From contig JAZURI010000002.1 in assembly GCA_045606105.1 (NCBI GenBank), positions 1-64,000 on the forward strand: DNA of 64,000 bases, in the 5' to 3' direction. The notes beneath the pieces are model-generated. The model was not told the origin of the DNA, did not search any database, and worked only from the letters and a program-made list of their open reading frames with translations. Each line of letters begins with the position of its first letter. The stretch's first letter is position 1. Shown in pieces: positions 34,316 to 48,647 of the stretch. This DNA comes from Spirochaetia bacterium (GTDB lineage: Bacteria > Spirochaetota > Spirochaetia > CADAEX01). The translations under genes and the position numbers were made by a program.

Positions 34316-34321
34316 AATATT

Positions 34322-34365
34322 ATTATACCATAAAGATTGAAAAATATAAATATTAATTGTATTAT
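34322..34365. promoter_or_regulatory. Interlocked divergent promoters for dnaE (-) and manA (+), both giving leaderless transcripts
   Basis: dnaE: TTTATA-17-(TGG)TATAAT-6-ATG. manA: TTGAAA-17-TATTAT-6-ATG. Confidence 0.7.
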
Positions 34366-34371
34366 TTAAGT

Positions 34372-35511
34372 ATGTCACTGAATCACCTGAAATGCGCATT
34401 CAAAAACTACAATTGGGGCTCCGCTTCAAAAATTCACGGAATAATTGGAATTGAACCCGACGGAAAACCTCTTGCCGAAGTATGGATGGGCAGTCATCCC
34501 GGCGGAATGTGCTATCTCGATACCGATGACGGTACAGTGCTTTCCCTGGAGGATTATGTGGCAAGGAACCCTGAAAAGAGCCTGGGCAGCCGTACTCTCT
34601 CCGGATACGGAAACAGGCTTCCATATCTTTTCAAGCTTCTCTGTATAGAAAAACCATGCTCCGTGCAGGCCCATCCCGACAGAGCCACTGCCGAAAAGGG
34701 CTTTGAAAGGGAGAATCTGGCCGGAATACCTGCCGACAGTCCAGGCCGTATCTTCAAGGATCCCGGATGCAAGAACGAGATGGTTCTGGCCCTTACCCCC
34801 TTTTATCTGATGAACGGTTTCAAACCTGCAGACGAGATAAAAAGGAATTTTCCCGGCTTCATAGATGAGTGCGGCTCCGAAAGCGATTTCTATTCAGCTT
34901 TCCTGAAAAAATTCATCAATTCCGGTTTCGGTGATATAAAAGCAGATCTTTCTTTGCTTGACCCTGTTGAAAGATATATTTTTGACCGGCTTCAGGACTA
35001 TTTTCCCGGAGACCCCTTTGTATATGCTCCGTTTTTCCTGAACTCTGTTAGGCTGGAGCCGGGAGAGGCACTGGCTGTGGGAGAGGGCCAGCTTCATTCA
35101 TATGTGGAGGGAATGTGCTTTGAGCTTATGACCTCTTCAGACAATACCCTGAGAGGGGGGCTGACCGACAAGTACATCAACAAGGAAGAGCTTTATAATG
35201 TTATCCGTTTCAGGGAAGAAAAAAGTAGCATCATCACACCGGTGGTTTCCGGCTGCGAAAGAAGATTCATTCCAGGTTTCGGGGAATTCGCCCTTTCTGA
35301 AATAAAGCCTGGTACAGGGGAATTTGTTTCGGAAGCAGACCACGGCATGGAGATTATCTTTGTATATTCGGGCCGGGGTGTTCTGTGTGCCGGAGATGAA
35401 ACTGCGGAGCTGAACAGGGGAGAGGCCCTTGTGATTCCGGCCGATGCGGGAAGGTATACTATCCGTGGTACCGGAGATCTGGCTGTATACAAGGGAGCGG
35501 TGCAGGCTTGA
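34372..35511 (+). CDS. manA: Mannose-6-phosphate isomerase, class I
   Basis: YNWG, AEVWMGSHP, LPYLFKLL, SVQAHP, LHSY and ELMTSSDNTLRGGLT motifs. Confidence 0.9.
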   Translation: MSLNHLKCAFKNYNWGSASKIHGIIGIEPDGKPLAEVWMGSHPGGMCYLDTDDGTVLSLEDYVARNPEKSLGSRTLSGYGNRLPYLFKLLCIEKPCSVQAHPDRATAEKGFERENLAGIPADSPGRIFKDPGCKNEMVLALTPFYLMNGFKPADEIKRNFPGFIDECGSESDFYSAFLKKFINSGFGDIKADLSLLDPVERYIFDRLQDYFPGDPFVYAPFFLNSVRLEPGEALAVGEGQLHSYVEGMCFELMTSSDNTLRGGLTDKYINKEELYNVIRFREEKSSIITPVVSGCERRFIPGFGEFALSEIKPGTGEFVSEADHGMEIIFVYSGRGVLCAGDETAELNRGEALVIPADAGRYTIRGTGDLAVYKGAVQA

Positions 35512-35975
35512 GACTTTTTGTAGACTGTGATTCATGCCCGGTACAGATAAGGGAGATAATAGCCAGGGCTGCCCTCAGGACCGAAAGCCTCTGTTTTTTT
35601 GTTTCCAACAGGAAAATACCCCACGGAACCAATGCCTTTACCCATGATATAATAGTTTCAGAGGGAAAGGATAAGGCTGACGATTACATAGCAGAACATG
35701 CCCGTCAGTCCGATATTGTCATAACCAGGGATATCCTTATGGCCCAGAGACTGGTTGAAAGGAACATTGATGTTGTAAATGACAGGGGAACAAGATATAC
35801 TTATGAAAACATAAGGGAAAGGGTTTCCCTGAGAAACTATATGCAGGGACTTTTTGAAAACGGTCTGAAGCCTGAAAGTACTTCCCGTTTTTCAAAAAAG
35901 GAAATATTCGAGTTTGCAAACGCCTTTGACCGGCTTCTGTGCTTAAAGCTCAAAGGAGAAAGAAATGAAATTTAG
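35508..35975 (+). CDS. YaiI/YqxD (DUF188) family protein
   Basis: VDCDSCPV, ADDYI and DIVITRDI motifs. Confidence 0.85.
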   Translation: MRLFVDCDSCPVQIREIIARAALRTESLCFFVSNRKIPHGTNAFTHDIIVSEGKDKADDYIAEHARQSDIVITRDILMAQRLVERNIDVVNDRGTRYTYENIRERVSLRNYMQGLFENGLKPESTSRFSKKEIFEFANAFDRLLCLKLKGERNEI

Positions 35976-36867
35976 ATATATGATTCTTATACTGGCAGTG
36001 GCTGCCGTCCTCTCTTCCTGTTCGTTCAAGAAGCTTTCCATGGATGCCAATACTGCTTTCATGGAGGACAACGATCCTGTACTGGTAGGGGATTCACTTC
36101 CTCTTGTACTGAAGATGATGGATATACTGGCCACCTCCAATCCCGGCAATACAAATATTCTTTCCTCTGCCGGAAGCCTTTTTGTCATGTATTCCAATGC
36201 CTATCTCCAGACACCTGCCGACATGCTTCCATATGAAGAGCTGGAAAAGCAGAAGGAGATGTACAGCCGTGCAAAGAAGCTTTACCGCCGTGGATATGAC
36301 TATGTGACAGCTTCCCTTGACAGGAAGTACAAAGGTTTTCTCGACAACATGGAAAAGGGTGATTTTGACAAGGCTCTGAAAAAGGTAAAGAAGAGGGATG
36401 CCGGAGATCTCTACTGGGGCGGAGCCGCAATCCTGGCCGGAGTTTCCGTGGATATACTGGACCCTTACTTTGCATCCGACAGGGATAAGGCAATTGCAAT
36501 GCTTTTCAGGGCCTGTGAGCTTGACCCTGATTTCGGGAACGGCATGCTGGATGAGATAATGATGCAGTACTATGCTTCCATGCCTCAGGGAATGGGAGGC
36601 AGCATGGAAAAGGCTGAATATCACTACAGGAGAGGAATCGAACTTTCGGAAGACAATCTCCTTTCGATTCATGTTTCCTATGCATTGACAGTATGTACAA
36701 AGGATCAGACCATGGAGGGATATTCCCGTTTTGTCTCCGTACTGGATTCCGTAATCAGCCGTGATATCGAAAACAATCCGAAGAACCGTCTTTCCAATAC
36801 CATAAGCAGGGAAAAGGCTGAATGGCTTCTTAAGAACAAGGATAATTATTTTCTTATAGGATTTTAA
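35965..36867 (+). CDS. TPAT transporter T component (TatT, TRAP-associated lipoprotein)
   Basis: Lipobox VLSSC. Helical protein with D.DP.LV.D.LP, YSNAY and MGGS..KA..HY, located upstream of a dctP/dctQM pair. Confidence 0.85.
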   Translation: MKFRYMILILAVAAVLSSCSFKKLSMDANTAFMEDNDPVLVGDSLPLVLKMMDILATSNPGNTNILSSAGSLFVMYSNAYLQTPADMLPYEELEKQKEMYSRAKKLYRRGYDYVTASLDRKYKGFLDNMEKGDFDKALKKVKKRDAGDLYWGGAAILAGVSVDILDPYFASDRDKAIAMLFRACELDPDFGNGMLDEIMMQYYASMPQGMGGSMEKAEYHYRRGIELSEDNLLSIHVSYALTVCTKDQTMEGYSRFVSVLDSVISRDIENNPKNRLSNTISREKAEWLLKNKDNYFLIGF

Positions 36868-36876
36868 GGTGATGAT

Positions 36877-37863
36877 ATGAAAAAAAGGATACTTATACTA
36901 TTAATACTTATTTTTACAGCGGTAAATTCATATTCTGCCACAGTAATCAAGATGGGATCCATTGCCCCGGCAGGCTCCTTATGGGACATGAAGCTGAAAG
37001 AACTGGCCCTGGAATGGAAAAAGATAACCAACGGCGAGGTTGAGCTGAAGCTCTATATGGGCGGTACCGTAGGAGACGAGGACAACATGATCCGTACCAT
37101 GAAAATGGGCGGTCTCAATGCAGGTGCCATGACAGCCCAGGGGCTGAAGGGAATCTCTCCCGACTCCTTTGCACTCTGTCTTCCTTGTATCGTAAGCGAT
37201 GACGACGAATTCGAATATGTTTTTGAGAAAATGAAGCCGACCTTTGAAAAGGCTCTGGAAAAGCAGGGCTTTGTTACTTTAGGATGGGCAATGACAGGGT
37301 GGGTCAACTTCTTTTCAAAAACCCCGGTGGTTTCTCCCGACGATCTTAAGAAAACCAAGATAGCCATTGATACCGACGGAAGGATAAGCAAGATCTGGAC
37401 CGATCTGGGTTTCCATGCCATTCCTCTGGCTTTCAATGACCTGGTTGCAGGACTTTTCAGCGGTATGGCCGATTCCACATACCTTACACCTCTTGCAGCC
37501 TCCTCTATGGGGCTTACAAAGATGGCTCCCAACATGTGCGATTTCAGAATTGCCCCTGTTTACTGTGCCGTTGTAATGGAGAGAAGGGGATGGAACAGGA
37601 TTCCTGCAAAATACAGGGAGAGCCTCAAGGCCAAGACCTCCGAGATAACTTCCCAGCTTTACGATATAATCAAGGTTGATGAAGCCCGTGCCATCGAGGT
37701 AATGAAAGGGGATTCTCTGGTAATCAATGAAGTTCCTGAAGAAGCAAGGAAACAGTGGCTTGCTATCGGCAGAAACGGCAGTGAATATTTTTCAAAGGAG
37801 CTTATTTCTCCAGAAGTTTACGAAGAGATGATGCGTTACGTTGATGAATACAGAAAAAAGTAA
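36877..37863 (+). CDS. dctP: TRAP substrate-binding protein DctP (TatP)
   Basis: IKMGSIAPAGSLW, GGTVGDE and PDDLK motifs, with a signal peptide. Confidence 0.88.
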   Translation: MKKRILILLILIFTAVNSYSATVIKMGSIAPAGSLWDMKLKELALEWKKITNGEVELKLYMGGTVGDEDNMIRTMKMGGLNAGAMTAQGLKGISPDSFALCLPCIVSDDDEFEYVFEKMKPTFEKALEKQGFVTLGWAMTGWVNFFSKTPVVSPDDLKKTKIAIDTDGRISKIWTDLGFHAIPLAFNDLVAGLFSGMADSTYLTPLAASSMGLTKMAPNMCDFRIAPVYCAVVMERRGWNRIPAKYRESLKAKTSEITSQLYDIIKVDEARAIEVMKGDSLVINEVPEEARKQWLAIGRNGSEYFSKELISPEVYEEMMRYVDEYRKK

Positions 37864-39697
37864 AAGACTTTTTGAAATTTACATATCTGCATTTCTTCTC
37901 ATTCTCCTGGCCGGTATTCCCACCGTGGAAATCATAGTCAGGAAATTTTTCCATATCGGAATAAAGGGGGGATACGAGTATACACGGCACATCGTGCTCT
38001 GGCTGACCCTTCTGGGAGGTGCACTCAACTCCTATTCCGGAAGTCATATGAAAATCGAGTTCGGTACAAAGCTGCTTCCGGAAAAATGTATTCCGGCAGC
38101 CCGGCTCTTTTCCCTTTTTACCGTAATCTTTGTTTCGGCAACTTTTCTTCTGATATCATTTTCCTTTGTCAGCATAGGCTTTACCCCGGAGGACAGGATT
38201 GGGGTTATCAGCACCAGGCTTGCGGTAGCCATAATGCCGGCAGGATTCCTTCTCATGATTATCCGTTCCCTGCAGTCCTTCGGAAAGGACGGGGGACGGG
38301 CTGTTATAGCGGTACTGGCTTTGGCTGCCGGTCTTTACGTTTCCATGTCCCCGGTTGTAAACCTGCTTTCTTTCTATACGGAGGTTCCGTCTTGGATGTG
38401 GAACCTGTCTGACAGCTCCGTAGCTTTTGTTGCGGGAAGCAAGGCTCTTCTCATTGTGATACTTATAGCTGCCGGTCTTCTGGGAGCTCCTATTTTTTCA
38501 GTTATCGGCGGTATTGCATATCTTCTCATAACTGCCTCAGGCACCTTTGCCGAAACAGCAGCCAACGAATTCTATACAATGATCATCAGCAATACTGTAC
38601 CGGCAATTCCTCTTTTCACCCTTACAGGTTTCATTCTTTCGGAAAGCAGGGCAGGAACCCGTCTTATCAGGGCTTTCAATGCCTTCTTCGGATGGATGCC
38701 GGGCGGTATCATAATTGCAGCCGTAATTATCTGTGCCTTTTTTACAGTCTTTACAGGAGCCTCCGGTGTTACCATACTGGCCATGGGCGGTCTTCTTGCC
38801 ATAGTACTGGAAAAAAGCGGTATTGACGAGAAATACAGGACAGGTCTTCTCTGTTCAGCCGGAAGCATCGGACTTCTCTTCCCGCCGAGTCTTCCTCTCA
38901 TACTTTACGGAATCATAGCACAGCTTGATATAAAGGCCCTTTTTGTGGGAGGTATCATTCCAGGTATACTGCTGGTTATTTCCCTTATCATTACCGGTTT
39001 TATCTACATATCGAAGCACAAGATTGAAATAATCAAGCCGTCCGTGTCTGAATGTGTTATCAGCTTCCGGGACTGCTTCTGGGAGATTCTTCTTCCGTTC
39101 ATTATCATCATTTCATATTTTTCAGGCCTTACAACACTGGTTGAAACCGGAGCTGTGGCTGTAGTATACACAATGCTGGTGGAGTTCGTGATAAAGAAGG
39201 AGCTTCATCTCAGGGATCTCTTTACAATTGCAGGTAAAAGCGTTCCTATCATAGCCGGTATTCTTGTTATCCTGGGAATGTCCAAGGTTCTTTCATATTA
39301 CATGATTGATGAGATGATACCTCAGCGCTTCAGCGAATGGATTACAATGCATATCCATTCAAAGATCCTGTTTCTCTTCCTGCTGAACATTGCTCTCCTG
39401 GTGGTGGGATGCTTCATGGATATTTTCTCGGCCATCATGGTTGTGGTTCCGCTGATTATTCCGCTGGGTGAGATTTTCGGAATAAATCCGGTTCATCTCG
39501 GTATCATTTTCCTTGCAAACCTGGAGCTGGGATATATAACTCCTCCGGTGGGTCTCAATCTTTTTCTTGCCAGCTACCGGTTCAATGTTCCTCTTGAAAA
39601 AATCTACAGGGCAGTGGTACCGTTTTTCCTGATCATGCTTGTAACAGTGTTTGTCATTACCTATGTGCCGGGATTTACCACCTGCTTTCTGAAGTAA
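37844..39697 (+). CDS. TRAP transporter fused small/large permease (DctQ-M)
   Basis: N-terminal 4TM part, then AIPLF, GSIGLLFPPS and GYITPPVGLNLF DctM motifs. Confidence 0.9.
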   Translation: MNTEKSKRLFEIYISAFLLILLAGIPTVEIIVRKFFHIGIKGGYEYTRHIVLWLTLLGGALNSYSGSHMKIEFGTKLLPEKCIPAARLFSLFTVIFVSATFLLISFSFVSIGFTPEDRIGVISTRLAVAIMPAGFLLMIIRSLQSFGKDGGRAVIAVLALAAGLYVSMSPVVNLLSFYTEVPSWMWNLSDSSVAFVAGSKALLIVILIAAGLLGAPIFSVIGGIAYLLITASGTFAETAANEFYTMIISNTVPAIPLFTLTGFILSESRAGTRLIRAFNAFFGWMPGGIIIAAVIICAFFTVFTGASGVTILAMGGLLAIVLEKSGIDEKYRTGLLCSAGSIGLLFPPSLPLILYGIIAQLDIKALFVGGIIPGILLVISLIITGFIYISKHKIEIIKPSVSECVISFRDCFWEILLPFIIIISYFSGLTTLVETGAVAVVYTMLVEFVIKKELHLRDLFTIAGKSVPIIAGILVILGMSKVLSYYMIDEMIPQRFSEWITMHIHSKILFLFLLNIALLVVGCFMDIFSAIMVVVPLIIPLGEIFGINPVHLGIIFLANLELGYITPPVGLNLFLASYRFNVPLEKIYRAVVPFFLIMLVTVFVITYVPGFTTCFLK

Positions 39698-40558
39698 TCA
39701 GAGCTTTTTCAGAAAATCCACGAAAATATTGGTCAGAGCAGTCTGTGCATAAGGGGAAAGAGAGGTATATTCCGTTTCCAGCAGGTTGAACATCTGCCGT
39801 TCCAGAACCTCAAGATCCTTTTCGGAAACCGGTATTTTCTGGTCTATGAGCGAAGACTCTATTCCCTTGTCCTTGATAATGGAATCGCCCCAGTTACCTA
39901 TGGCAAACTTGCACATGGAAACGCTGTTCTTGAAGGTGTTGGCAATACCGTAGAAGCAGATTTTCTTGTCCGCATCCTTGATTTCCTTGAAGATGGTGAC
40001 ATCATAATTCTCGTACGGAATCCTGATTCTTGAGATGACCTCTCCGCTTGCAAGCTCCATCTCCCCATCCTTGAAAAACTGCTGTACCGGGATGACTTTC
40101 TTTGTTCCGGCCGCAATTGATGAGCTGATTTCCAGCTTTGCATTCAGAAGTGACAGAACGGTGAACACATTGTTCCTGATGTCAGGTTTGCATATAATCC
40201 CACCCAGGGTAACAATGTTGCGTACATTGGGAAGGGCACACCCTTTCAGGGCCTTCAGGAGAAGCACCGGCAGGGCATTCTGTCCCTTCTGTATAAGATG
40301 ATTGACAGTAACCTCCGTTCCGATATCGAAGTAGCGTTCACCCCTTTTCATCTGGAGAAGCTCTTCTATGAACCCCATATAGATATAGTGCTGAATGATA
40401 CTGTCATTGTCACCGACGTATACAGAACGAATTTCGGTAAAGTTGATATCATCAAAATAGAGACGGTAATTTTTAATGCTTTTCATTATCTTGAAAAGCT
40501 CAGGAAGGTTCTTTGGGCTGTAATAATAAATCTTGGAGTTATTTTTTACCGGAACCAT
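39698..40558 (-). CDS. Divergent xanthine-dehydrogenase-family FAD-binding-like subunit
   Basis: YYSPKNLPE N-terminus and VRNIVTLGGII (equivalent to IRNxATxGGN) plus GEVISRIRIP. The usual AGGT loop is absent. Confidence 0.75.
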   Translation of the reverse strand: MVPVKNNSKIYYYSPKNLPELFKIMKSIKNYRLYFDDINFTEIRSVYVGDNDSIIQHYIYMGFIEELLQMKRGERYFDIGTEVTVNHLIQKGQNALPVLLLKALKGCALPNVRNIVTLGGIICKPDIRNNVFTVLSLLNAKLEISSSIAAGTKKVIPVQQFFKDGEMELASGEVISRIRIPYENYDVTIFKEIKDADKKICFYGIANTFKNSVSMCKFAIGNWGDSIIKDKGIESSLIDQKIPVSEKDLEVLERQMFNLLETEYTSLSPYAQTALTNIFVDFLKKL

Positions 40559-41027
40559 TCTTACCTCTCTTTATGGCACTTGCTGCCAGCCTGATTCCCT
40601 CTGTCATGGAATTGTGATCGGTACAGCTGCAGCTGTTTCCCGACATTGCTTCCAGGATATCCTTTTTTTCCGGCTTTGTATTGCTTTTCAGGAAGGCATA
40701 GATGGTTATCATCTTGCCGTTGTGGCAGAAGTCACAGAATCTGCATCCATAGGCATCCAGCACCTTGGAAACTATTTCAAATTCGGGAGTCTCTTCTATC
40801 CATTCATAGGTAAAGATTTCTGAATTGCTGACACTGAACATGCTGATCATGCATGCAGGTACCGGCAGATTGTTCCTGAGCACGGTGCATCCTCCGCAGC
40901 GGCCGGTGTTGCAGCATTCATTTACGGAATAGTATCCGAACTCCTTTCTCAGTACATCTGAAAGCTTTTTACCGGGATCTGTATTGAGCTTTATATTTCT
41001 GTTATTGAGCTTGAATTCTATTATCAT
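40539..41027 (-). CDS. Xanthine-dehydrogenase-family 2x[2Fe-2S] small subunit
   Basis: CNTGRCGGCTV...PAC and CDFC...GNSCSCT, with all eight cluster Cys present. Confidence 0.88.
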   Translation of the reverse strand: MIIEFKLNNRNIKLNTDPGKKLSDVLRKEFGYYSVNECCNTGRCGGCTVLRNNLPVPACMISMFSVSNSEIFTYEWIEETPEFEIVSKVLDAYGCRFCDFCHNGKMITIYAFLKSNTKPEKKDILEAMSGNSCSCTDHNSMTEGIRLAASAIKRGKNGSGKK

Positions 41028-42982
41028 GAGTTCTCCATTTTTCTGTAGATGTACTCAGGTGAAATAGGGAAAGAGGAAACCATCTTTCCTATGGCCTGGG
41101 AGACGGCACTGCTGTATGCGGCCGGTATGATGGCAAAGGGAAGATCCCCGCAGGAATGTATATCATCGGTTTTTCTGCTGTTTATGAGACTGACGGATAT
41201 GGGAACATAGAAATCCTCCCTGTTCTTTGTAGTCCAGGCAATGCTGTTTACTACCTGCTTGTAAAGGGATTTTTTCATAAGATCCTCATTGTTCTTGGCA
41301 CCGCAGTCAAAGCAGGTCCATACCGATTCTATTATCGGTGTATAAGTGGACATATCCATTGATATCTCAACTACGGCTGCACCCCATGATATGGTATTCA
41401 TAAGCTCGTTGGGGTTAATGGATTTCGAGAACTCAAAAGGAAGTGGTACATTTATTCTCTTTTCCTGTAATGTTTTACAGCATTTCTTGACAAGCTCTGT
41501 AACTCCGGTTGTCATTCCTCCCAGAAGATCCGGTGCAGAATCCCTGTTAAGATCGGTGTGGTGAGGACCTATGAAAACTTCATCAAGTCCCGTTTCCTTT
41601 TTTATTATGCTTTCCCAGAGCTCATAGCTGAGGAACTGCTGCGGTACCGTTCCGGTAGAGAAGGTGACCTGCCAGTTGTCATTCAGCTGCATATGACCGG
41701 TAAAGTCGATGCAGAGCTTTTTGTTGAAGTCGGCATCATTCTTGAAATAGGCAATGGCAAGACCGATTCCCCGATGATAGGACCTGTCCTCGATTCCCGC
41801 CTCACGGTTCTTCTTTGCCAGCTCGTAGGAATAGTATTTTCTTCTGAAGTCGGAGCTTCTGGCAACATTAGCCACGATATTGCTTACGATATGTGAATGC
41901 TCCTCATCCACATTTTCGCATCTCCATTCGTCCGGTCCCAGCTCCCTTTCCGAAATTATGGCATTTATATGGTTTTCGGTAGCTATGAAAAGCTGCATGA
42001 AATTCGGGCCTGTAATGAAGGACATTGGCGGCATGCTGGTCTTGATAAGCCGCTGGGTGATGTTGATCTTGGAGCATTTATATCCGCCCAGGATTATTTT
42101 CAGGGAATTATCCATCACCTCCTGGCTGAAAACTGGATATGCCCCTGCATTGATGTCGATATTTACATCGCATTCCACAATCCTGTCTGTTTCCTTGAGC
42201 ACGGTGGTCCTGTATTTTATCCTGAACGGATACTGGGCCGGAACACAGCTCAGGGCCTCTTCCCTGGACAGGAAGAACTTGACGGAACGACCTGTCTTTT
42301 TTGCCACTACGGCGGCAATGGCCGCATGATAGGAGGGAAACCAGAGTCTCCCTTCAAGAGGGGACGGAATATCCATGACCTTTACCACAACATTGGTCTT
42401 GTCCACACCCATGATATCGGCCACGGTATCCCTTACATGGTCGGGCCACTGGGTTGCGGCAAATACCTTTATCATGTTTCCGAAAACATTTATGACTACA
42501 CCCAGCTGGTCATTGTACTCAAGCTTGTAGGCAAGACCGTCGGTTTCAGTCTCCACGGTGTAGAGCATATCTTCGGGAAATTCCTCATCGATATATGTCC
42601 AGGTGGATTTTCTCTCCTTCAGTATCTGTTCAGGAGTATATTCTCCGTCAAAGAAAAGAGGGGTGCTGGGATGATATTCGGTATTGATGCTGTCCAGGAT
42701 ATGGTTTACATCCTTCTCGCTTTCCGCCGCCACAATGAATACAGGCTGGTTCTGGAAGCTTACATGGTTGTCGCAGAGAAGGGGAACTGAGTTTCCCATA
42801 ACATTTATCTCGTTCTTCTCAAGATCCTCGTGAGAAAAAATATAACTGTTGTCGGGAAGATTTTCCGGGAGTCCCTTTTCGGTGATTTCTCCCTTGATGA
42901 TATCTGCCCTGAAAAGAGAGACATTTAGATAATTGACCAGGTTAAGGTCGTTGATAAAGATATCCGAATTTTCCAAAGGCAC
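41024..42982 (-). CDS. Degenerate xanthine-dehydrogenase-family molybdopterin-binding-like large subunit
   Basis: Hammerhead N-terminus (QPVFIVAAE), ATQWP, TGRSVK...SREE and HRGIGLA. Moco motifs are eroded. GTG start after AAGGA. Confidence 0.8.
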   Translation of the reverse strand: MPLENSDIFINDLNLVNYLNVSLFRADIIKGEITEKGLPENLPDNSYIFSHEDLEKNEINVMGNSVPLLCDNHVSFQNQPVFIVAAESEKDVNHILDSINTEYHPSTPLFFDGEYTPEQILKERKSTWTYIDEEFPEDMLYTVETETDGLAYKLEYNDQLGVVINVFGNMIKVFAATQWPDHVRDTVADIMGVDKTNVVVKVMDIPSPLEGRLWFPSYHAAIAAVVAKKTGRSVKFFLSREEALSCVPAQYPFRIKYRTTVLKETDRIVECDVNIDINAGAYPVFSQEVMDNSLKIILGGYKCSKINITQRLIKTSMPPMSFITGPNFMQLFIATENHINAIISERELGPDEWRCENVDEEHSHIVSNIVANVARSSDFRRKYYSYELAKKNREAGIEDRSYHRGIGLAIAYFKNDADFNKKLCIDFTGHMQLNDNWQVTFSTGTVPQQFLSYELWESIIKKETGLDEVFIGPHHTDLNRDSAPDLLGGMTTGVTELVKKCCKTLQEKRINVPLPFEFSKSINPNELMNTISWGAAVVEISMDMSTYTPIIESVWTCFDCGAKNNEDLMKKSLYKQVVNSIAWTTKNREDFYVPISVSLINSRKTDDIHSCGDLPFAIIPAAYSSAVSQAIGKMVSSFPISPEYIYRKMENS

Positions 42983-42987
42983 TTCCT

Positions 42988-43491
42988 TTACTGTTTTTTG
43001 TCAATCAGCTCAAAGCTGAAATCTATGAGAAATGCATTTTTATACATGCTCAGGCTGACCTTTGCCCTTCTTTTCCTTTTGTCAACCTTGACTATAAGCC
43101 CTTCAAGCCCTTTAAGCGGACCATCCAGTACCTCTATCTTATCATTTTCATTGAAAATTACAAAGGATTTTCTTATTGTTCTTCCATATCTTGTCAGCTG
43201 GAATATTATACGCTTTTCTTCATCCGGCAAAGGGAAAATATCTGAATTGCTTCTGAGAAAATGGCAGAAAAAAGGGATTTTCCTCAATTTACAGCAGGTG
43301 TCATCGTCAATTTCCTCAGACTCCAGGAAAACATATCCGGGAAAAACCGGGACTTCGGCAGTAGTGCTTTTTCCCTGTTTCCTTATGGTGAGCTCTCTCT
43401 GAGGAACAAACAGATTCAGTCCCAGCGGTTCTGCCAGCCTGATAAACTGCTTTTCCTTTCCTGTGAGTATCTGCAAGACAAAAATATTCAT
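42988..43491 (-). CDS. loaP: NusG paralogue, LoaP-type antiterminator
   Basis: NGN domain (TGKEK, VFPGYVFL) and KOW domain (GPLKGLEG) with the Arg/Lys-rich KVDKRKRRAK segment typical of LoaP. Not in a secE-rplK context. Confidence 0.8.
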   Translation of the reverse strand: MNIFVLQILTGKEKQFIRLAEPLGLNLFVPQRELTIRKQGKSTTAEVPVFPGYVFLESEEIDDDTCCKLRKIPFFCHFLRSNSDIFPLPDEEKRIIFQLTRYGRTIRKSFVIFNENDKIEVLDGPLKGLEGLIVKVDKRKRRAKVSLSMYKNAFLIDFSFELIDKKQ

Positions 43492-43498
43492 CACTTTA

Positions 43499-43527
43499 AT
43501 AATAACCCTAAATTTGAAGCAGAACAA
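43499..43527 (-). promoter_or_regulatory. Putative promoter of loaP giving a leaderless transcript
   Basis: Minus strand: TTGTTC-17-TATTAT-7 nt-ATG. Confidence 0.55.
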
Positions 43528-43550
43528 GGTTTATTTCCCGTTTAATCAGT

Positions 43551-44828
43551 ATGTTGAGGTATATTTTTACTTTGCTGCTGCTTCTGGTCTCCATTCCCAT
43601 CCATTCCATGCCGGAGAAGGCTGAAATCAGGTCCTTCGGTTCCACTGAGGGGATAAGCAGACGAAGGCTCTATATTGAGGATGAGGATATAAAACTCTCT
43701 GTGGTCAGGTCTGAAAAGAAGGGTGAGGAGTACAGCTCGCTTTCCTTTGTCTCCCCGGTCCTTGGACTGGGAAAGCTGAAGACCAGGGGGCTGTTTACCG
43801 AAATTCTGAATCCATGCGGTTACGGACCCGATACAGATGTCTTTACGGAGGAGGGAAAGCTGGTTTTTGACAAGGGAATGACAGAAAGCGGAAAATACGG
43901 CATGTATGCAAAGCCCTTTGGAAGCCTGACTTTCTTTACCCTGGGAACATCCCAGGAGCCGGAAATCAGGGGTCTGCATGCCTGTGCCGGCAACAATTGG
44001 TTCCGTCTTGAGGCATTATATGAAAATTCCGACCCTGTACAGAATGCCGGAAGCAGCTATTATCTTAAAAACACAGTCCATAATGAAAAATGTACTCTCA
44101 GCAATTCTGCCCTGAAGCTTGATATAGCCCATGATTTCTTTATGTTTTCATCTGTTACCGCCCTGTCATCGGGGAGCTACATGAATTCAGGGCTGTATAA
44201 CCGGGAATTTGCAGCCATTTTTCTCGGAAACAGGGCAGAAATAGATATTTCCTTTTCAGGCTGTACGGAAAATTATATTGCCCCCTTGGGTAAATTGCCT
44301 GTCTCCAGGTACAGATACGGAATCAGTACCCTTGTTTATCCCTTTCCGTTCATGAGCCTTTCAGGGAAAATGTGTACCGATTTCAGACCTCCCGATTTCA
44401 AGGATGAGCTTTACAACGATTTTGTCAGGGAATGGATGCTTAAAACCGTGATAGATGTCCGGAATTTCAGACTGAAGCTGAGCTGGGAACGGGAGGATAT
44501 TTTTGAAAACACCGGCGAAGAGAATGAAAAGAGTGTTGCTGCATCAGGCTTGTCCTACGACAACGGACTTCTTTATCTTGCCTTCAGCTGTAAGCTTTAT
44601 ATGGAAAACGGCGGTGAGACAAGAAAGGGAACCGACAGTACATTGAAGCTGGACTTTGATAAGATAAGGCTTTCCGCAGGCTGGAAAAGGGATGTCCGGG
44701 AAAAAATAACAGATACATTCTCCCAGGAGCTGACTCTTGTAAACAGAAATTTTGAGCTGAAGCTTGATCATGATAAAATAACAGGGGAGTGCTCCACATT
44801 TTCTGTGACGGCAGAAATATCTTATTGA
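43551..44828 (+). CDS. Exported hypothetical protein, candidate outer-membrane beta-barrel
   Basis: N-terminal signal peptide, many alternating amphipathic segments, and C-terminus FSVTAEISY. Confidence 0.6.
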   Translation: MLRYIFTLLLLLVSIPIHSMPEKAEIRSFGSTEGISRRRLYIEDEDIKLSVVRSEKKGEEYSSLSFVSPVLGLGKLKTRGLFTEILNPCGYGPDTDVFTEEGKLVFDKGMTESGKYGMYAKPFGSLTFFTLGTSQEPEIRGLHACAGNNWFRLEALYENSDPVQNAGSSYYLKNTVHNEKCTLSNSALKLDIAHDFFMFSSVTALSSGSYMNSGLYNREFAAIFLGNRAEIDISFSGCTENYIAPLGKLPVSRYRYGISTLVYPFPFMSLSGKMCTDFRPPDFKDELYNDFVREWMLKTVIDVRNFRLKLSWEREDIFENTGEENEKSVAASGLSYDNGLLYLAFSCKLYMENGGETRKGTDSTLKLDFDKIRLSAGWKRDVREKITDTFSQELTLVNRNFELKLDHDKITGECSTFSVTAEISY

Positions 44829-44868
44829 ATTTTTGAATGAATGAATGTATCATTATTTCAGAGGTAAT

Positions 44869-46458
44869 ATGAGTAATAATACATTTAAAGGACGCAGTTT
44901 TACTGTAATTGACGATTTCTCCTTTGACGAGAAAATGTATCTTTTCAGAAAGGCCCGTGAGCTTAAGGAGCTTCTCAGGAACAATGACAAGGCTGCACTG
45001 GAAAAATTCAGAATTAATGACAGCGATTTCGGAATCTACGAGGTATTCATCGAGGACAGTACCAGAACCAAGGAATCCTTCAAGAATGCGGCAGAATTCC
45101 ACAGAGTCAAGCTTTCAAACCTTGATACCTCCCATTCTTCCATAAACAAGCAGGAAAGCTTTGCCGATACCTTCAACACCCTTTCAGGCTACGACAACAA
45201 CATCTTTATCGTAAGGAGCCGTCAGGAGGGTCTCTGCAGATGGCTGGAGGAGAACGGACGCAATTATGCCGAAAGGAACAATCTCCCCATTCCCCCTGCA
45301 TTCATAAATGCCGGCGACGGTAAGCACGAGCATCCTACCCAGGAACTGCTGGATGATTTTACCTTCCTTGAGCACAACAACTGGGATACAGCTTCCATAC
45401 ATATTGCCCTGGTGGGTGACCTTTATCACGGAAGAACGGTACATTCAAAGGCTGACGGCCTGAAAATCTTCGATAATGTAACCATAGACCTTATAGCACC
45501 GCCGGAACTGGCCATGCCGGAATTCTACTATGACAAGATGATCCAGAACGGATTCAGGCTCAATACATACAGCTCCATAGAGGAATACCTTGAAAAGGGT
45601 TCAGTGGCAAAAATCTGGTACTTTACCAGACCTCAGCTTGAAAGGATGGGAGATGCGGTACTCAAGAAGCAGGAAATACTGAGAGACAGCATCACCTTCA
45701 GAGAAGCCTTCATGGACAAGCTGCCGGAGGGAACAATATTCTATCATCCGCTTCCGAGACACAAGGTTTATCCTACAATTCCTACATTCCTGGATACCAC
45801 CCCTCTCAACGGATGGGAAAACCAGTCCATAAACGGAAAGATAGTCAGAATTATCCTTCTCGGACTTATTGCGGGAAAGATCGGAGATGATTTTACCGGA
45901 GAGGTGCAGTACAGACATGCGGCTGAGGATTCAGAGGACTTCATAGTTCCAATGCCTATACATCATAACGCACCTATCAAGGATTGCTCCGAAGGGGTTA
46001 AGCCTATTTCAAACGGTCTTGTCATCGACCACATCTTCAGGGGCAGAAGCGAAAGCGAAATCCGCGAACAGCTCGGAAGGATTATCCGTCTGCTGAAGCT
46101 TTACGGCAAGGGCGGTGAGTGGGTAACCTCATCAAGGGCTGAACCGGGAATGATGAAAGGAATCATATTCCGTCCCGATCACGGTGAATTCGGTATCAAG
46201 AACCTGAAAAGGCTTGCTTCCCTGGCACCGGGATGTACCGTCAATGTCATTGAGAACAGGAAGGTAATCAAGAAGCTGAAGCTTCATATGCCTCCTAAGA
46301 TCTATAATTTCGACGATATTGAATGCAGCAATCCTGACTGTATCAGCAACCATGAGCAGGGAGAGAATATTCCGTCCGAATTCTACAAGACTGCAGATGA
46401 CAAATTTGTCTGCAAGTACTGTGAAAAAATTCATACCTTCATGGAAATCTGGAAATAA
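44869..46458 (+). CDS. pyrB: Aspartate carbamoyltransferase, fused catalytic + regulatory chains (PyrBI)
   Basis: STRT, NAGDGKHEHPTQ, GDL..GRTVHS and HPLP, followed by PyrI-type GLVIDHI and the Zn motif CSNPDCIS...CKYCE. Start at 44869 after GAGGT. Upstream TTGAAT-17-TATCAT. Confidence 0.95.
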   Translation: MSNNTFKGRSFTVIDDFSFDEKMYLFRKARELKELLRNNDKAALEKFRINDSDFGIYEVFIEDSTRTKESFKNAAEFHRVKLSNLDTSHSSINKQESFADTFNTLSGYDNNIFIVRSRQEGLCRWLEENGRNYAERNNLPIPPAFINAGDGKHEHPTQELLDDFTFLEHNNWDTASIHIALVGDLYHGRTVHSKADGLKIFDNVTIDLIAPPELAMPEFYYDKMIQNGFRLNTYSSIEEYLEKGSVAKIWYFTRPQLERMGDAVLKKQEILRDSITFREAFMDKLPEGTIFYHPLPRHKVYPTIPTFLDTTPLNGWENQSINGKIVRIILLGLIAGKIGDDFTGEVQYRHAAEDSEDFIVPMPIHHNAPIKDCSEGVKPISNGLVIDHIFRGRSESEIREQLGRIIRLLKLYGKGGEWVTSSRAEPGMMKGIIFRPDHGEFGIKNLKRLASLAPGCTVNVIENRKVIKKLKLHMPPKIYNFDDIECSNPDCISNHEQGENIPSEFYKTADDKFVCKYCEKIHTFMEIWK

Positions 46459-48647
46459 TGGAACTGTTCAGCGGAATCAACAACACCAACCGTCCGCTGG
46501 CTGATGCAATGCGGCCTGAAACCCTGGATGATTTCGTAGGGCAGGAGCATATTATCGGAAAGGGGAGACTGCTCCGCCGTGCCATCCAGGCCGACCAGCT
46601 CTCTTCCCTGATCTTCTACGGTCCTCCGGGAACCGGCAAAACCACGCTGGCCCGGATCATAGCCAATACCACCAGCAGTTATTTCATTACAATAAATGCA
46701 GTTCTCTCCGGGGTCAAGGAGATCCGGGATGCCATAGACGAGGCAAAAAAGCGGAGAGATTACTATGGTAAAAGGACCATACTTTTTGTTGATGAGGTTC
46801 ACAGGTGGAACAAGGCCCAGCAGGATGCCCTGCTTCCATGGGTTGAAAACGGGACTTTCATCTTTATCGGTGCCACTACCGAAAATCCATACTTTGAGGT
46901 CAATTCCGCCCTTGTAAGCAGAAGCCGTGTCTTTCAGCTTCTTTCTCTTACCAAAGAAGACCTTATAAAGGCGGCTGAAAATGCCATCCGTGACAAAAAC
47001 CGCGGATACGGCCGTTACGACATTGAATTCGAGCCGGGAGCACTGGAACATCTGGCTGCAATAGCCAACGGTGATGCCAGAAGCATGCTGAATGCACTTC
47101 AGCTGGCTGTGGAGACCACTCCCGCATCATTTCCTCCTGCCCAGGGGGAAAAAATAACCATAACACTGGAAATAGCTGAGGAGAGTATCCAGAAAAAGGC
47201 CCTTCTTTACGACAAGGAGGGAGATTATCATTATGATACCATCAGTGCCTTCATAAAATCACTGCGGGGAAGTGATCCTGATGCCGCCCTGTACTGGATG
47301 GCAAGAATGATTGCCGGAGGAGAGGATCCCAAGTTTCTGTTCCGGAGGATGATGATTCTTGCTTCCGAGGATGTGGGACTGGCAGAGCCGGGGGCTCTGG
47401 GTGTGGTTGTATCTGCAGCAGAGGCCTTTGACAGGGTCGGTATGCCGGAAGGGCAGTTTTTCCTTTCACAGGCAGCTTTGTATCTTGCCCTCTGCCGTAA
47501 ATCCAACTCTACTATGGGATATTTTGATGCCCTGGCTGCGGTGAAGAGTGAAAAGCAGTCGGAGGTTCCCAACCATCTCAAGGATCCTTCCAGGGATAAA
47601 GAGAGCTTCGGACACGGTGAAGGCTATAAATATCCCCATGCCTTCAGGGATCATTGGGTGGCCCAGCAGTATCTTCCGTCTGCCCTTAAAGGTAAGGTTT
47701 TCTATACACCGGGAAATCTGGGATATGAAAAGGATGGTGCAGAAAATCTGGCCAGGCGAAGAGAGGCACAGCTGGAAGCACAGCTTGATACAGAGGCTGC
47801 AGGAGAGGTTCTCACCTTTTCACCTGAAGACAAGGGACGCGATGCCTGGTTCAGGAGAACGGCAGGGGAGAAAAACATGGTTCTTTCCGCCCTCAGGGAT
47901 GAAATCATTTCATCCGTTACCATTCAGAGGCATCACAGGATTCTGATTCCGGGAAACGACAAGGGGCTGCTGGCCTGGGAAGGGGCACGGCTTGCACCGG
48001 AAGGGGGAGTAACGGTTCTGGTAGATCGACCGGAGGATACCGGCTATTTTATAAACTATCCCTCCGTGCTGCCTGAAATTGAGCGCCCTGAAGCACTGTT
48101 CTCAGATCCGGTTTCCCTCAGCAGAGGTGATAACCTTTACGATATCATCATAGGACGGAACATTTTTACCAAAGAGGATAAATCTGCCCTTTTCAATGCA
48201 CTGTACAGCCTTATGGACAAGGATGGAAAAGGGGTTTTTGCCCAGATTGTCCCATGCTATTCCACCCGCCTTTCAGACATTGTGGGAAACAGGCTTTCTG
48301 AAGAAGAGCTCTCCGGGCTGGTCTGCTGCGAGGAAAAAATCTATTCGGGTGCTGATAACCTGCTTATGAACTGGAACGAGGAGACTCTTTCCCGGACGGC
48401 CCGTCAGTGCGGCTTTGAAGTCAGATGCCGTCTCAGGAGCTTTACGGAAAAAAGGTTCATTACGGAACGGGATGCGGAAAACTGGTTTGATGTTTCCAGA
48501 AAGGATTCCTATGGCTCAGGCTTGAAGGAAATGCCACTGCTGGCTGAAAAGGTACGGAATCTCATACTTCTGAACAGGGAAGAGGGAATATCCTGGAAAA
48601 GCGTATGGGCTGTAATTGAGCTCAGAAAAGGTCAGGATCTGGACTGA
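46458..48647 (+). CDS. rarA: Replication-associated recombination protein A (RarA/MgsA) with a ~280-aa C-terminal extension
   Basis: [43 protein letters not shown] and ASEDVG motifs. Confidence 0.92.

What the first reader, a model, noticed from the sequence alone, without database searches (positions are those of the whole stretch)
39698..42982. Three-subunit xanthine-dehydrogenase-like complex that has lost its Mo-cofactor and catalytic motifs but kept both Fe-S clusters
Seen in the large subunit: GGGFGGK is replaced by PSPLEGR; AFRGFG by SFITGPN (pterin-binding Arg lost); GQG by PQQ; and the catalytic KGxGE by HSCGD (Glu to Asp, ~41141-41158). Only the xTQ glutamine survives. The small subunit keeps 8 Cys, but QCGFC becomes FCDFC and CRCTGY becomes CSCTDH, losing residues that face the cofactor. 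The FAD subunit lacks the AGGT loop but retains RNxxTLGG. All three ORFs are uninterrupted and coupled, and no Moco or XdhC genes are in the window. Known: these motifs are near-invariant in molybdenum hydroxylases, and I recall divergent homologous triplets in Treponema genomes (needs checking). Inference: a maintained Moco-independent pseudo-enzyme repurposed as an Fe-S electron-transfer module, redox/purine sensor or scaffold. This is the best candidate for an undescribed system in the window.
Basis: partly seen in the sequence, partly recalled or inferred. Interest (0 to 1): 0.8.

Follow-up and report, generated by a model that had tools for sequence, protein, structure and literature searches.

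The report
Molybdenum-less xanthine-dehydrogenase-like operon in a spirochaete
A gut spirochaete with a very small genome keeps, under strong selection, a three-protein complex that looks like xanthine dehydrogenase but cannot hold the molybdenum cofactor, so it must do some other, still unknown job that relatives link to cell-surface sugar synthesis.

Summary
Three overlapping minus-strand genes (L 41024-42982, S 40539-41027, F 39698-40558) encode a xanthine-dehydrogenase/CoxLMS-like trio. L keeps the whole fold (AF2 pLDDT 88.5; TM 0.84 to XDH), but every Moco-binding motif is replaced. S keeps all eight cluster cysteines. F has lost its GGT loop.

The 99%-complete 1.46-Mb genome has no MoaA, MoaC, MoaE, MoeA, MogA/MoaB or XdhC. 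The genes are not decaying: dN/dS is 0.065-0.105, like their neighbours.

The trio belongs to a family found throughout Treponema-type spirochaetes (51/51 genomes of one family, of which 1/101 has MoeA). Other spirochaetes with canonical motifs sit beside XdhC and have MoeA (5/5). In 14 of 18 relatives examined the trio follows a UDP-sugar 4,6-dehydratase and a 4-aminotransferase. This window carries a trimmed LoaP-L-S-F form, and its genome has no orthologue of either sugar gene.

The function is not purine hydroxylation. Most likely it is an Fe-S (flavo)protein working at a remodelled cleft, tied to envelope-glycan or redox physiology. A probable Borrelia counterpart is published as 'xdhACB', without biochemistry.

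The parts
42988..43527 (-). LoaP-type specialised NusG paralogue and first gene of the operon. The likely true start is ATG at 43491 (residue 13 of the ORF).
   Evidence: NCBIfam NF033641 scores 143 bits against a cut-off of 125. Pfam finds NusG NGN and KOW domains. It is the only LoaP above cut-off in the genome. It lies directly upstream of L in 8 of 8 clade-A loci that reach that far. dN/dS is 0.067.
41024..42982 (-). L: 652-aa homologue of the XDH/CoxL molybdopterin subunit, with all Moco-binding motifs replaced.
   Evidence: Pfam and NCBIfam matches. PDB alignment. AF2 pLDDT 88.5 and pTM 0.88. Foldseek TM 0.84 to XDH/XO at 16% identity. Motif tables. dN/dS 0.065.
42347..42367 (-). PSPLEGR (L 206-212), in place of GGGFGGK.
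   Evidence: HMMER alignment to 3zyv. SPxEGR is invariant in clade A. Coordinates.
42002..42022 (-). SFITGPN (L 321-327), in place of AFRGFG. The pterin-contacting Arg is lost.
41636..41644 (-). PQQ (L 447-449), in place of the GQG of MGQG.
   Evidence: MAFFT alignment with canonical members. STxTVPQ is invariant in clade A.
41144..41158 (-). HSCGD (L 609-613), in place of xGxGE. The catalytic Glu is Asp here.
   Evidence: G612 and D613 are invariant in clade A. This position is E, D, T, N or S in other spirochaete members.
40539..41027 (-). S: 162-aa small subunit with two [2Fe-2S] sites. All 8 ligand Cys are kept. FCDFC lies at nt 40725-40739 and CSCTDH at nt 40614-40631.
   Evidence: Fer2_2 at 48 bits. 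PDB hits to NdhS and similar subunits. The Cys are conserved in almost all of 30 family members. dN/dS 0.105.
39698..40558 (-). F: 286-aa subunit with the CoxM/XdhB FAD-subunit fold. The GGT loop is replaced by FDDIN (nt 40442-40456). RNIVTLGG is kept (nt 40199-40222).
   Evidence: FAD_binding_5 at 71 bits. AF2 pLDDT 88.4. Foldseek TM 0.70-0.75 to CoxM, QorM and XDH FAD domains. FDD(I/L)N is present in 8 of 8 clade-A sequences. dN/dS 0.080.

Best explanation
The locus is a four-gene operon, loaP-L-S-F (43527 to 39698, minus strand).

Shown:
- L, S and F are homologues of the three subunits of xanthine dehydrogenase / CO dehydrogenase.
- L keeps the complete fold but none of the residues that hold the molybdenum cofactor, and the organism has no pathway to make or insert that cofactor.
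- S keeps both [2Fe-2S] sites.
- F keeps its fold but has lost one of the two flavin-binding loops.
- All four genes are under purifying selection as strong as their housekeeping neighbours.
- The operon is the trimmed form of a six-gene module typical of Treponema-type spirochaetes: LoaP, a UDP-HexNAc 4,6-dehydratase, a 4-aminotransferase, then L-S-F.

Inferred:
- The proteins still assemble like CoxLMS.
- LoaP, a processive antiterminator, secures read-through of its own operon.
- The complex is not a purine hydroxylase. It is an Fe-S (and possibly flavin) protein whose working site is the remodelled former cofactor cleft of L, next to the Fe-S cluster of the C-terminal domain of S. There it binds and oxidises, reduces or senses some ligand other than Moco.
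- Its cellular role lies in envelope/glycan metabolism or oxidative-stress physiology. In this lineage it no longer depends on the two amino-sugar enzymes.
For: Fold and homology.

Motif loss.

Positive control:
- Two spirochaete loci outside the class (L063, L064) keep GGxFGGKE, AFRGFG, xGQG, ASR and GE.
- They lie next to XdhC or purine-catabolism genes.
- 5 of 5 genomes of their two families (f18, f24), including the two that hold these loci, have MoeA.

No Moco pathway:
- MoaC, MoeA_N, MoCF_biosynth, XdhC, MoaA C-terminal domain and MoaE each give 0 hits in G000 (99.03% complete). Each rings in 5-14 of the 14 control genomes.
- In family f2, L is found in 51 of 51 genomes, while MoeA_N is found in 1 of 101.

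Maintenance:
- NG86 dN/dS among six close loci is L 0.065 (15/15 pairs), S 0.105 (15/15), F 0.080 (14/15) and LoaP 0.067 (10/10).
- The seven neighbouring genes give 0.041-0.128.
- Window versus L032 gives 0.11 for L.

Conserved operon and synteny: 8 of 8 clade-A loci.

A single LoaP in the genome.

Cleft under constraint in this clade: 26 of 56 residues in the six former Moco windows are invariant among 12 orthologues. Random windows give 10.8 +/- 3.4, and 0 of 20000 reach 26.

Link to amino-sugar genes:
- X-Y-L-S-F occurs in 14 of 18 Moco-less loci I chose, and LoaP in 9 of 18.
- X is Polysacc_synt_2 at 348-363 bits. Y is DegT at 274-356 bits, closest to ArnB, with the catalytic Lys kept.

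Fe-S cluster next to the cleft is the one retained: in two very small relatives (G102 and a g9 genome) S has lost the four N-terminal-cluster Cys but keeps C-x2-C...C-x-C.

RNA-library contigs of one study lie on the operon and bridge the LoaP/L and L/S junctions.

Genetics in a probable homologue: bb_0554-0556 is needed for H2O2 resistance and for tick and mouse infection (abstract and sections 15 and 18 of PMC9993122).
Against: - No biochemical datum exists for any member. Cofactor content, assembly and substrate are all inferred.
- This genome has no orthologue of X. Its best Polysacc_synt_2 hit is 50 bits, against about 350 bits for true X. Its only strong DegT is 29% identical to Y, against 37-71% among Y orthologues. 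The amino-sugar link may therefore not apply here.
- Across 25 other Moco-less L proteins the former Moco windows are only averagely conserved (0.439 against 0.442 for random windows). That fits a passive scaffold as well as a lineage-specific ligand site.
- I set the window boundaries after seeing the alignments, and these loops lie in the protein core, so some enrichment is expected anyway.
- F lacks the GGT loop, so flavin binding in this clade is doubtful.
- dS is about 1, near saturation for NG86, so the ratios are approximate.
- The RNA evidence is contigs only. DNA carry-over is not excluded and all four runs come from one study.
- Allopurinol and urate effects reported for Borrelia are read by their authors as XDH activity.
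Confidence: 0.78

Rival explanations
1. Redox or iron sensor / regulator. The complex does no catalysis. The [2Fe-2S] cluster at the L-S interface reports oxidant or iron status, and the complex modulates envelope synthesis or LoaP-dependent transcription.
For: - The smallest relatives keep only the cleft-proximal cluster.
- The Borrelia mutant is H2O2-sensitive.
- L is highly variable between genera at 23-29% identity, as expected of a scaffold.
- LoaP and the trio stay together even where the sugar genes are lost.
Against: - No DNA-, RNA- or signalling domain was found in L, S or F.
- A 1100-residue three-subunit sensor is costly for 1.1-1.5 Mb genomes.
- Strong constraint on the cleft loops in clade A suggests a bound ligand.
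- No direct evidence either way.
Confidence: 0.15
2. Genuine xanthine dehydrogenase that uses Moco taken up from the host or community, as the 'xdhACB' name for the Borrelia genes implies.
For: Phelan et al. report that urate rescues, and allopurinol sensitises, in a locus-dependent way (section 15 and its figure legend). The fold is that of XDH.
Against: - All pterin, Mo and substrate contacts are replaced, including the Arg of FRGFG, the GGGFGGK loop, MGQG, the Arg of GGRHPF and the pterin-facing Gln of QCGFC in S.
- There is no XdhC insertase and no Moco genes. f2 has MoeA in 1 of 101 genomes.
- Canonical spirochaete XDHs keep every motif.
- The authors could not detect urate formation (Discussion).
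- No bacterial Moco uptake system is known to me (recalled).
Confidence: 0.03
3. Decaying relic: a pseudo-operon on its way out of a shrinking genome.
For: The motifs are lost. The operon is trimmed relative to the six-gene form. The genome is small at 1.46 Mb. L is about 100 residues shorter than canonical subunits.
Against: - The frames are intact in every locus seen.
- dN/dS is 0.065-0.105, like housekeeping neighbours.
- The genes are retained in 51 of 51 f2 genomes, including a 1.1-Mb one.
- The AF2 models are confident.
Confidence: 0.02

Closest known systems
Xanthine dehydrogenase / molybdenum hydroxylases (bovine XDH 1fo4, R. capsulatus XdhAB 1jro, CoxLMS 1n5w, quinoline oxidoreductase 1t3q, nicotinate dehydrogenase 3hrd)
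   Same: Same three-subunit architecture and gene order. L has the same fold (TM 0.84), and so does F (TM 0.70-0.75). Both [2Fe-2S] Cys sets are present.
   Different: No Moco-binding or catalytic motif survives, and the genome has no Moco pathway or XdhC. L is about 100 residues shorter. All NCBIfam equivalog scores lie far below their cut-offs, for example 73 against 849.
Borrelia burgdorferi bb_0554-bb_0556, named 'xdhACB' (Phelan et al. 2023, PMC9993122; abstract and sections 15 and 18 read)
   Same: A three-gene operon with an L-like, a Fe-S-like and a FAD-subunit-like protein of 622, 155 and 289 aa. The g9 genomes here carry ORFs of 619, 153 and 287 aa in the same order. Their S and F match the family profiles at E 5e-19 and 1.7e-26.
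   Different: - The L match is only E 8e-4.
- Its S has lost the four Cys of the N-terminal cluster.
- It has no LoaP and no sugar genes nearby.
- The published XDH assignment rests on modelling and on urate and allopurinol effects, without enzyme data.
Six-gene spirochaete module LoaP - 4,6-dehydratase - aminotransferase - L - S - F
   Same: Homologous LoaP, L, S and F in the same order. The Moco motifs are lost in the same way.
   Different: - The window's clade lacks the two sugar genes, both in the operon and in the genome.
- Its former cofactor loops are fixed in a clade-specific form.
- The catalytic-position Glu is Asp.
- The GGT loop of F is replaced by FDD(I/L)N.
LoaP of Bacillus velezensis (processive antiterminator of polyketide operons). 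Seen only as a passage in the review PMC7858274; the rest is recalled.
   Same: The NCBIfam LoaP model is passed. The gene sits at the head of the operon it presumably serves.
   Different: The target here is a 3.3-kb XDH-like operon, not a long polyketide or polysaccharide cluster. Only about 60 nt lie between the LoaP start and the divergent gene, and I did not look for a leader RNA element there.

Membership tests
Molybdenum hydroxylase (XDH/CoxL) family, as a working enzyme | Large-subunit fold (hammerhead plus two MoCoBD domains) | tested here: met
   MoCoBD_1 at 99 bits, with the other two domains below cut-off. AF2 pLDDT 88.5. Foldseek TM 0.84 over about 740 columns to XDH/XO.
Molybdenum hydroxylase (XDH/CoxL) family, as a working enzyme | Moco-contacting motifs GGGFGGK, (A)FRGFG, MGQG and TxxSR, and the Gln of xTQ | tested here: not met
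   These read PSPLEGR, SFITGP, VPQQ and SAPDLLG. Only TQ is kept. The five canonical proteins and loci L063 and L064 keep them all. Motif roles and bovine numbering are recalled.
Molybdenum hydroxylase (XDH/CoxL) family, as a working enzyme | Catalytic Glu in GxGE (bovine E1261, recalled) | tested here: not met
   It is Asp613 in HSCGD. Among other Moco-less members it is E, D, T, N or S.
Molybdenum hydroxylase (XDH/CoxL) family, as a working enzyme | Moco biosynthesis and an XdhC-type insertase in the genome | tested here: not met
   0 hits for PF01967, PF03453, PF00994, PF02625, PF06463 and PF02391 in a 99.03%-complete genome.
Molybdenum hydroxylase (XDH/CoxL) family, as a working enzyme | Two [2Fe-2S] sites in the small subunit | tested here: met
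   C39, C44, C47, C59 and C98, C101, C133, C135 align with the ligands of 3hrd_D, 4zoh_C and 8uem_C. Cluster occupancy itself cannot be tested here.
Molybdenum hydroxylase (XDH/CoxL) family, as a working enzyme | FAD subunit with the GGT-type loop and the TxGG loop | tested here: inconclusive
   The fold is met and RNIVTLGG is present. The GGT loop is replaced by FDDIN, whereas non-clade-A relatives keep G-x-T. Loop roles are recalled from CoxM.
LoaP antiterminators (NCBIfam NF033641) | Score above the curated cut-off, with NGN and KOW domains | tested here: met
   143 bits against 125. NusG and KOW Pfam hits.
LoaP antiterminators (NCBIfam NF033641) | Acts through a 5' leader RNA element of its target operon | not tested
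   About 60 nt separate the LoaP start from the divergent gene. The consensus scan over 39400-43800 found promoter-like and terminator-like sites at about the rate expected from shuffles. I ran no search or fold for a leader RNA element.
Spirochaete six-gene module (LoaP-X-Y-L-S-F) | Homologous LoaP, L, S and F in this order | tested here: met
Spirochaete six-gene module (LoaP-X-Y-L-S-F) | Polysacc_synt_2 dehydratase and DegT aminotransferase between LoaP and L | tested here: not met
   They are absent from the operon in the window and in 8 of 8 clade-A loci. No orthologue exists elsewhere in the genome.
Borrelia 'XdhACB' (bb_0554-0556) | Sequence homology of all three proteins | tested here: inconclusive
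   For the g9 triplet, S scores E 5e-19, F 1.7e-26 and L only 8.4e-4 against the family profiles. Lengths match the paper. The organism's name is inferred, not given.

The most novel reading that the evidence does not exclude
The XDH fold has been converted in spirochaetes into a new kind of Fe-S enzyme or receptor. The emptied cofactor cleft of L, next to the [2Fe-2S] cluster of the C-terminal domain of S, binds a nucleotide-sugar or other envelope precursor and performs redox chemistry that needs no molybdenum. This activity would be ancestral to all Treponema-type spirochaetes and retained in the smallest pathogen genomes. It would also explain why the Borrelia operon is needed for infection. 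The window's clade would be a further-derived form with a re-fixed cleft, an altered flavin site and independence from the two amino-sugar enzymes.
Probability: 0.3. Interest if true: 0.85.

Novelty: new variant of a known kind. Interest (0 to 1): 0.68.

Why it matters
Molybdenum hydroxylases are defined by their cofactor. A three-subunit member that has discarded it yet is kept by what appears to be every Treponema-type spirochaete would be a clear case of an enzyme scaffold taken over for other chemistry. That retention includes genomes of 1.1-1.5 Mb and, probably, the Lyme-disease agent, where the operon is needed for infection.

It also matters for annotation. These genes are labelled 'molybdopterin-dependent oxidoreductase' or 'xanthine dehydrogenase'. 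That label implies purine catabolism and molybdenum use in organisms that have neither.

The recurrent link to LoaP and to UDP-4-amino-sugar synthesis gives a concrete place to look for the function.

In print I found only the Borrelia paper and a review that cites it. Searches for TP0080, for Treponema with xanthine dehydrogenase and molybdopterin, for LoaP with Spirochaetes or Treponema, and for an XDH pseudoenzyme returned nothing relevant. Subscription journals and supplements were not searchable.

Tried and rejected
1. E1/E3-type sugar deoxygenation. I considered that Y might be a PMP-dependent dehydrase fed with electrons by S-F, as in 3,6-dideoxyhexose synthesis (recalled). I rejected this: Y aligns best with ArnB (E 1e-73) and keeps the catalytic Lys in SFYATKPIT.

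2. Complex prediction on L plus S, with alignments A3 and A4. The verdict was 'no answer' (score 0.11, mark 0.32). It is no evidence for or against assembly.

3. The search for related loci with the 20-sequence alignment A1 failed because no stretch was conserved enough. I repeated it with the 12 clade-A sequences (A2).

4. Promoter and terminator scan of 39400-43800. The hits were no more than in shuffles: 9 against 8.0 promoter-like sites and 5 against 5.2 terminator-like sites. Nothing usable came of it.

5. RNA contigs. One bin (40148-40501) has no cover in any of the four runs. That proves nothing. Depths cannot rank genes.

6. The window's divergent neighbour (43551-44828; no Pfam hit) showed no BLAST similarity to the small secreted protein or the SPOR-domain protein that flank LoaP in other spirochaetes.

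7. Papers not held: PMC5182079 (T. denticola flagellin glycan), PMC5913657 and PMC7323004 (LoaP). What they say about these genes is unknown to me.

8. The count of 115 of 401 phylum genomes mixes the Moco-less family with canonical XDHs of families f18 and f24. I do not use it as the family's range.

9. With the L protein as query, the eight g9 genomes gave no hit (0/8). A weak FAD_binding_5 match (E 2.5e-4 to 6e-3, below cut-off) then located their triplet in 4 of 4 tested.

Full report
WHAT IS THERE

Between 43527 and 39698 on the minus strand lie four tightly packed ORFs:
- a 179-aa ORF (42988-43527);
- L (652 aa, 41024-42982), starting 5 nt after that ORF's stop;
- S (162 aa, 40539-41027), overlapping L by ATGA;
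- F (286 aa, 39698-40558), overlapping S by 20 nt.

Pfam assigns L to MoCoBD_1 (99 bits; the hammerhead and MoCoBD_2 domains fall below cut-off). It assigns S to Fer2_2 and F to FAD_binding_5. The NCBIfam equivalogs for XDH, CODH and their relatives all score far below their cut-offs, for example 73 against 849 bits. The first ORF passes the LoaP antiterminator model (143 bits, cut-off 125).

Large subunit. HMMER aligns L 81-359 with mouse AOX3 and with human and bovine enzymes. In that alignment:
- GGAFGGK pairs with PSPLEGR;
- AFRGFG pairs with SFITGP;
- GGRHP pairs with PAQYP;
- only the Gln of the 'xTQ' stretch is kept.

MAFFT alignments with five canonical family proteins add two more replacements: MGQG to VPQQ, and GxGE to CGD. 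The functional roles of these motifs and the bovine residue numbers are recalled knowledge, not tool output.

Small and FAD subunits. S keeps the eight ligand cysteines, but QCGxC reads FCDFC and CRCTGY reads CSCTDH. F keeps RNIVTLGG. Where relatives have G-G-T it has FDDIN.

THE FOLD IS INTACT

An AlphaFold2 model of L built from a 39-sequence alignment has pLDDT 88.5 and pTM 0.88. Foldseek's best matches in the PDB are XDH, XO and AOX molybdenum subunits, with TM 0.84 normalised to the query at 16% identity.

F gives pLDDT 88.4. It matches the FAD subunits of glyceraldehyde oxidoreductase, CODH, quinoline oxidoreductase and XDH at TM 0.70-0.75.

THE ORGANISM CANNOT MAKE MOCO

The window is part of a 1.46-Mb, 11-contig genome rated 99.03% complete. 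Six searches each gave no hit: MoaC, MoeA_N, the MogA/MoaB/MoeA domain, XdhC, the MoaA C-terminal domain and MoaE. The same searches ring in 5 to 14 of the 14 control genomes. L is the only MoCoBD_1 protein in the genome.

IT IS NOT DECAYING

Nine related loci came from rumen and gut Spirochaetia MAGs. All of them that reach far enough have LoaP-L-S-F in the same order (8 of 8). They also share the same flanks: a convergent TatT-DctP-DctQM transporter on one side, and an unknown secreted protein plus a PyrB-PyrI fusion on the other.

NG86 dN/dS among the six closest loci:

| Gene | dN/dS |
|---|---|
| L | 0.065 (range 0.049-0.098, 15 of 15 pairs) |
| S | 0.105 |
| F | 0.080 |
| LoaP | 0.067 |
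| Seven neighbouring genes | 0.041-0.128 |

Window against its closest relative (77% identity) gives 0.11 for L. dS is about 1, so these values are approximate. The comparison with neighbours is still fair.

Contigs from four metatranscriptome runs of one study lie on the operon. One contig spans 41952-43459, across the LoaP/L junction. Another spans 40742-41418, across the L/S junction. Contigs cannot prove transcription.

THE FAMILY

With L as query, every sampled genome of several families in the same class has a homologue: f2 51/51, f3 3/3, f4 2/2, f7 1/1, f8 4/4, f9 2/2, f10 2/2 and f11 3/3. All 28 loci fetched show L-S-F in that order.

In all 35 class-level genomes whose L I inspected, the Moco motif positions are non-canonical. 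They also differ from genus to genus.

Family f2 has MoeA_N in only 1 of 101 genomes.

As a positive control, two homologues from other spirochaete families (f18, f24) keep GGxFGGKE, AFRGFG, xGQG, ASR and GE. They sit beside XdhC, or beside carbamate kinase, YgeW-like, M20 peptidase and a xanthine permease. Five of five genomes of those two families, including the two that hold these loci, have MoeA. Motif loss and absence of the Moco pathway therefore go together.

The nearest ESM-Atlas clusters are XDH-family clusters, and Spirochaetota is the commonest phylum in those listed (27 of 30 hits share that family set).

CONTEXT IN RELATIVES

I fetched 19-kb regions around 20 loci, which I chose for long contigs and spread of families. 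Eighteen of them are of the Moco-less type. By tblastn:
- 14 have two genes directly upstream of L, X and Y;
- 1 has only Y;
- 3 have neither;
- LoaP heads the unit in 9.

X is a roughly 495-aa Polysacc_synt_2 protein of the PglF/CapD type (348-363 bits). Y is a roughly 400-aa DegT aminotransferase. It is closest to ArnB and keeps its catalytic lysine. The ancestral unit is thus LoaP-X-Y-L-S-F, and the window carries a trimmed LoaP-L-S-F form, as does one other genome (L055).

The window's genome has no orthologue of X: its best Polysacc_synt_2 hit is 50 bits. Its only strong DegT lies at C2:68353-69396 and is 29% identical to Y, against 37-71% among Y orthologues.

LoaP here is the genome's only LoaP. 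The second hit (82 bits) is presumably NusG.

FEATURES SPECIAL TO THIS CLADE

Within the 12 clade-A proteins (43-77% identical), the six former Moco windows hold 26 invariant residues out of 56. Windows of the same sizes placed at random hold 10.8 +/- 3.4, and 0 of 20000 placements reach 26. Two caveats apply: I drew the window boundaries myself, and these loops are core elements.

In 25 other Moco-less L proteins the same windows are only averagely conserved (0.439 against 0.442).

FDD(I/L)N replaces the GGT loop of F in 8 of 8 clade-A sequences.

In two very small relatives, G102 (1.14 Mb) and a g9 genome, S has lost the four cysteines of the N-terminal cluster but keeps C-x2-C...C-x-C. In XDH structures, as I recall them, the retained cluster is the one next to the cofactor site.

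READING

Shown: a maintained XDH-like trio that lacks every Moco-binding motif, in a genome with no Moco pathway, headed by LoaP.

Inferred:
- it assembles like CoxLMS;
- its working site is the remodelled cleft together with the adjacent Fe-S cluster;
- it serves envelope-glycan or oxidant physiology.

The amino-sugar link is strong for the family but not demonstrable for this genome.

The published Borrelia operon bb_0554-0556 encodes proteins of 622, 155 and 289 aa. It is needed for H2O2 tolerance and for tick and mouse infection, and is named xdhACB without enzyme data (abstract and sections 15 and 18 of PMC9993122). It matches the g9 triplet in order and in lengths (619, 153 and 287 aa). 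That g9 is Borrelia is my inference. If so, the XDH name is probably wrong.

NOVELTY

I found no description in print of a Moco-less XDH-type complex. Subscription journals and supplements were not searchable.

Earlier notes of this scan describe the same module in other genomes. I reached the operon structure, the motif loss and the sugar-gene link with my own calls. That agreement is a repeat by similar agents, not independent proof.

New in this report are:
- the dN/dS comparison;
- the canonical-XDH and MoeA control;
- the constraint on the cleft specific to this clade;
- the change in the flavin loop of F;
- the loss of the cluster cysteines in the smallest genomes.

Noticed in passing
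window 35965-39697 (+): A TPR-protein-associated TRAP transporter: TatT (PF16811, 257 bits), DctP, and a fused DctQ-DctM of 618 aa. It is convergent with F and ends 1 nt before F's stop. The block is syntenic in 6 of 6 clade-A loci that reach it.
   Followed up: partly
window 44845-46458 (+): A single 537-aa ORF joins an aspartate/ornithine carbamoyltransferase N-domain to PyrI allosteric and zinc domains. It looks like a fused catalytic-regulatory ATCase chain. It is 80-82% identical in relatives and has the lowest dN/dS of the region at 0.041.
   Followed up: no
window 46458-48647 (+): A MgsA/RarA-type AAA+ protein of 729 aa. The Pfam domains end near residue 433, leaving about 290 C-terminal residues without a match.
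   Followed up: no
window 43551-44828 (+): The divergent neighbour of LoaP is a 425-aa protein with a signal-peptide-like N-terminus and no Pfam family. It is the fastest-evolving gene of the region, at 31-38% identity to relatives and dN/dS 0.128.
   Followed up: partly
L048, L049, L051, L055, L057, L058, L060, L061 (regions next to LoaP): In 8 of the 9 loci that carry LoaP, a pair of genes lies divergent from it. The first is a roughly 175-aa protein with no Pfam family. The second is a 400-900-aa protein that carries a C-terminal SPOR domain in the two with a Pfam hit. The two sets are homologous among loci by BLAST. The window has no detectable counterpart.
   Followed up: partly
L047:10770-11237 (G102) and L065:10181-10642 (g9): The small subunit in two very small genomes has lost all four Cys of the N-terminal ferredoxin-type cluster but keeps the four of the second cluster. 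In the g9 genome this bears on the reported iron-poor physiology of Borrelia mentioned in PMC9993122.
   Followed up: partly
L063 (G080) and L064 (G130): Spirochaetes of two other families carry canonical XDH genes. One is next to XdhC, a PALP enzyme and an amidohydrolase. The other is next to carbamate kinase, a YgeW-like transcarbamylase, an M20 peptidase and a xanthine permease. This looks like an anaerobic purine-breakdown cluster.
   Followed up: partly
window 30842-34399 (-); L056, L059, L060, L061, L062: A roughly 1136-1226-aa ORF follows F directly on the same strand in 5 of the 18 loci. Pfam identified it as DnaE (DNA polymerase III alpha) for L056, the only one of the five scanned. 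In the window DnaE lies 5.3 kb further on, with a phosphomannose isomerase, DUF188 and the TRAP block inserted on the other strand.
   Followed up: no
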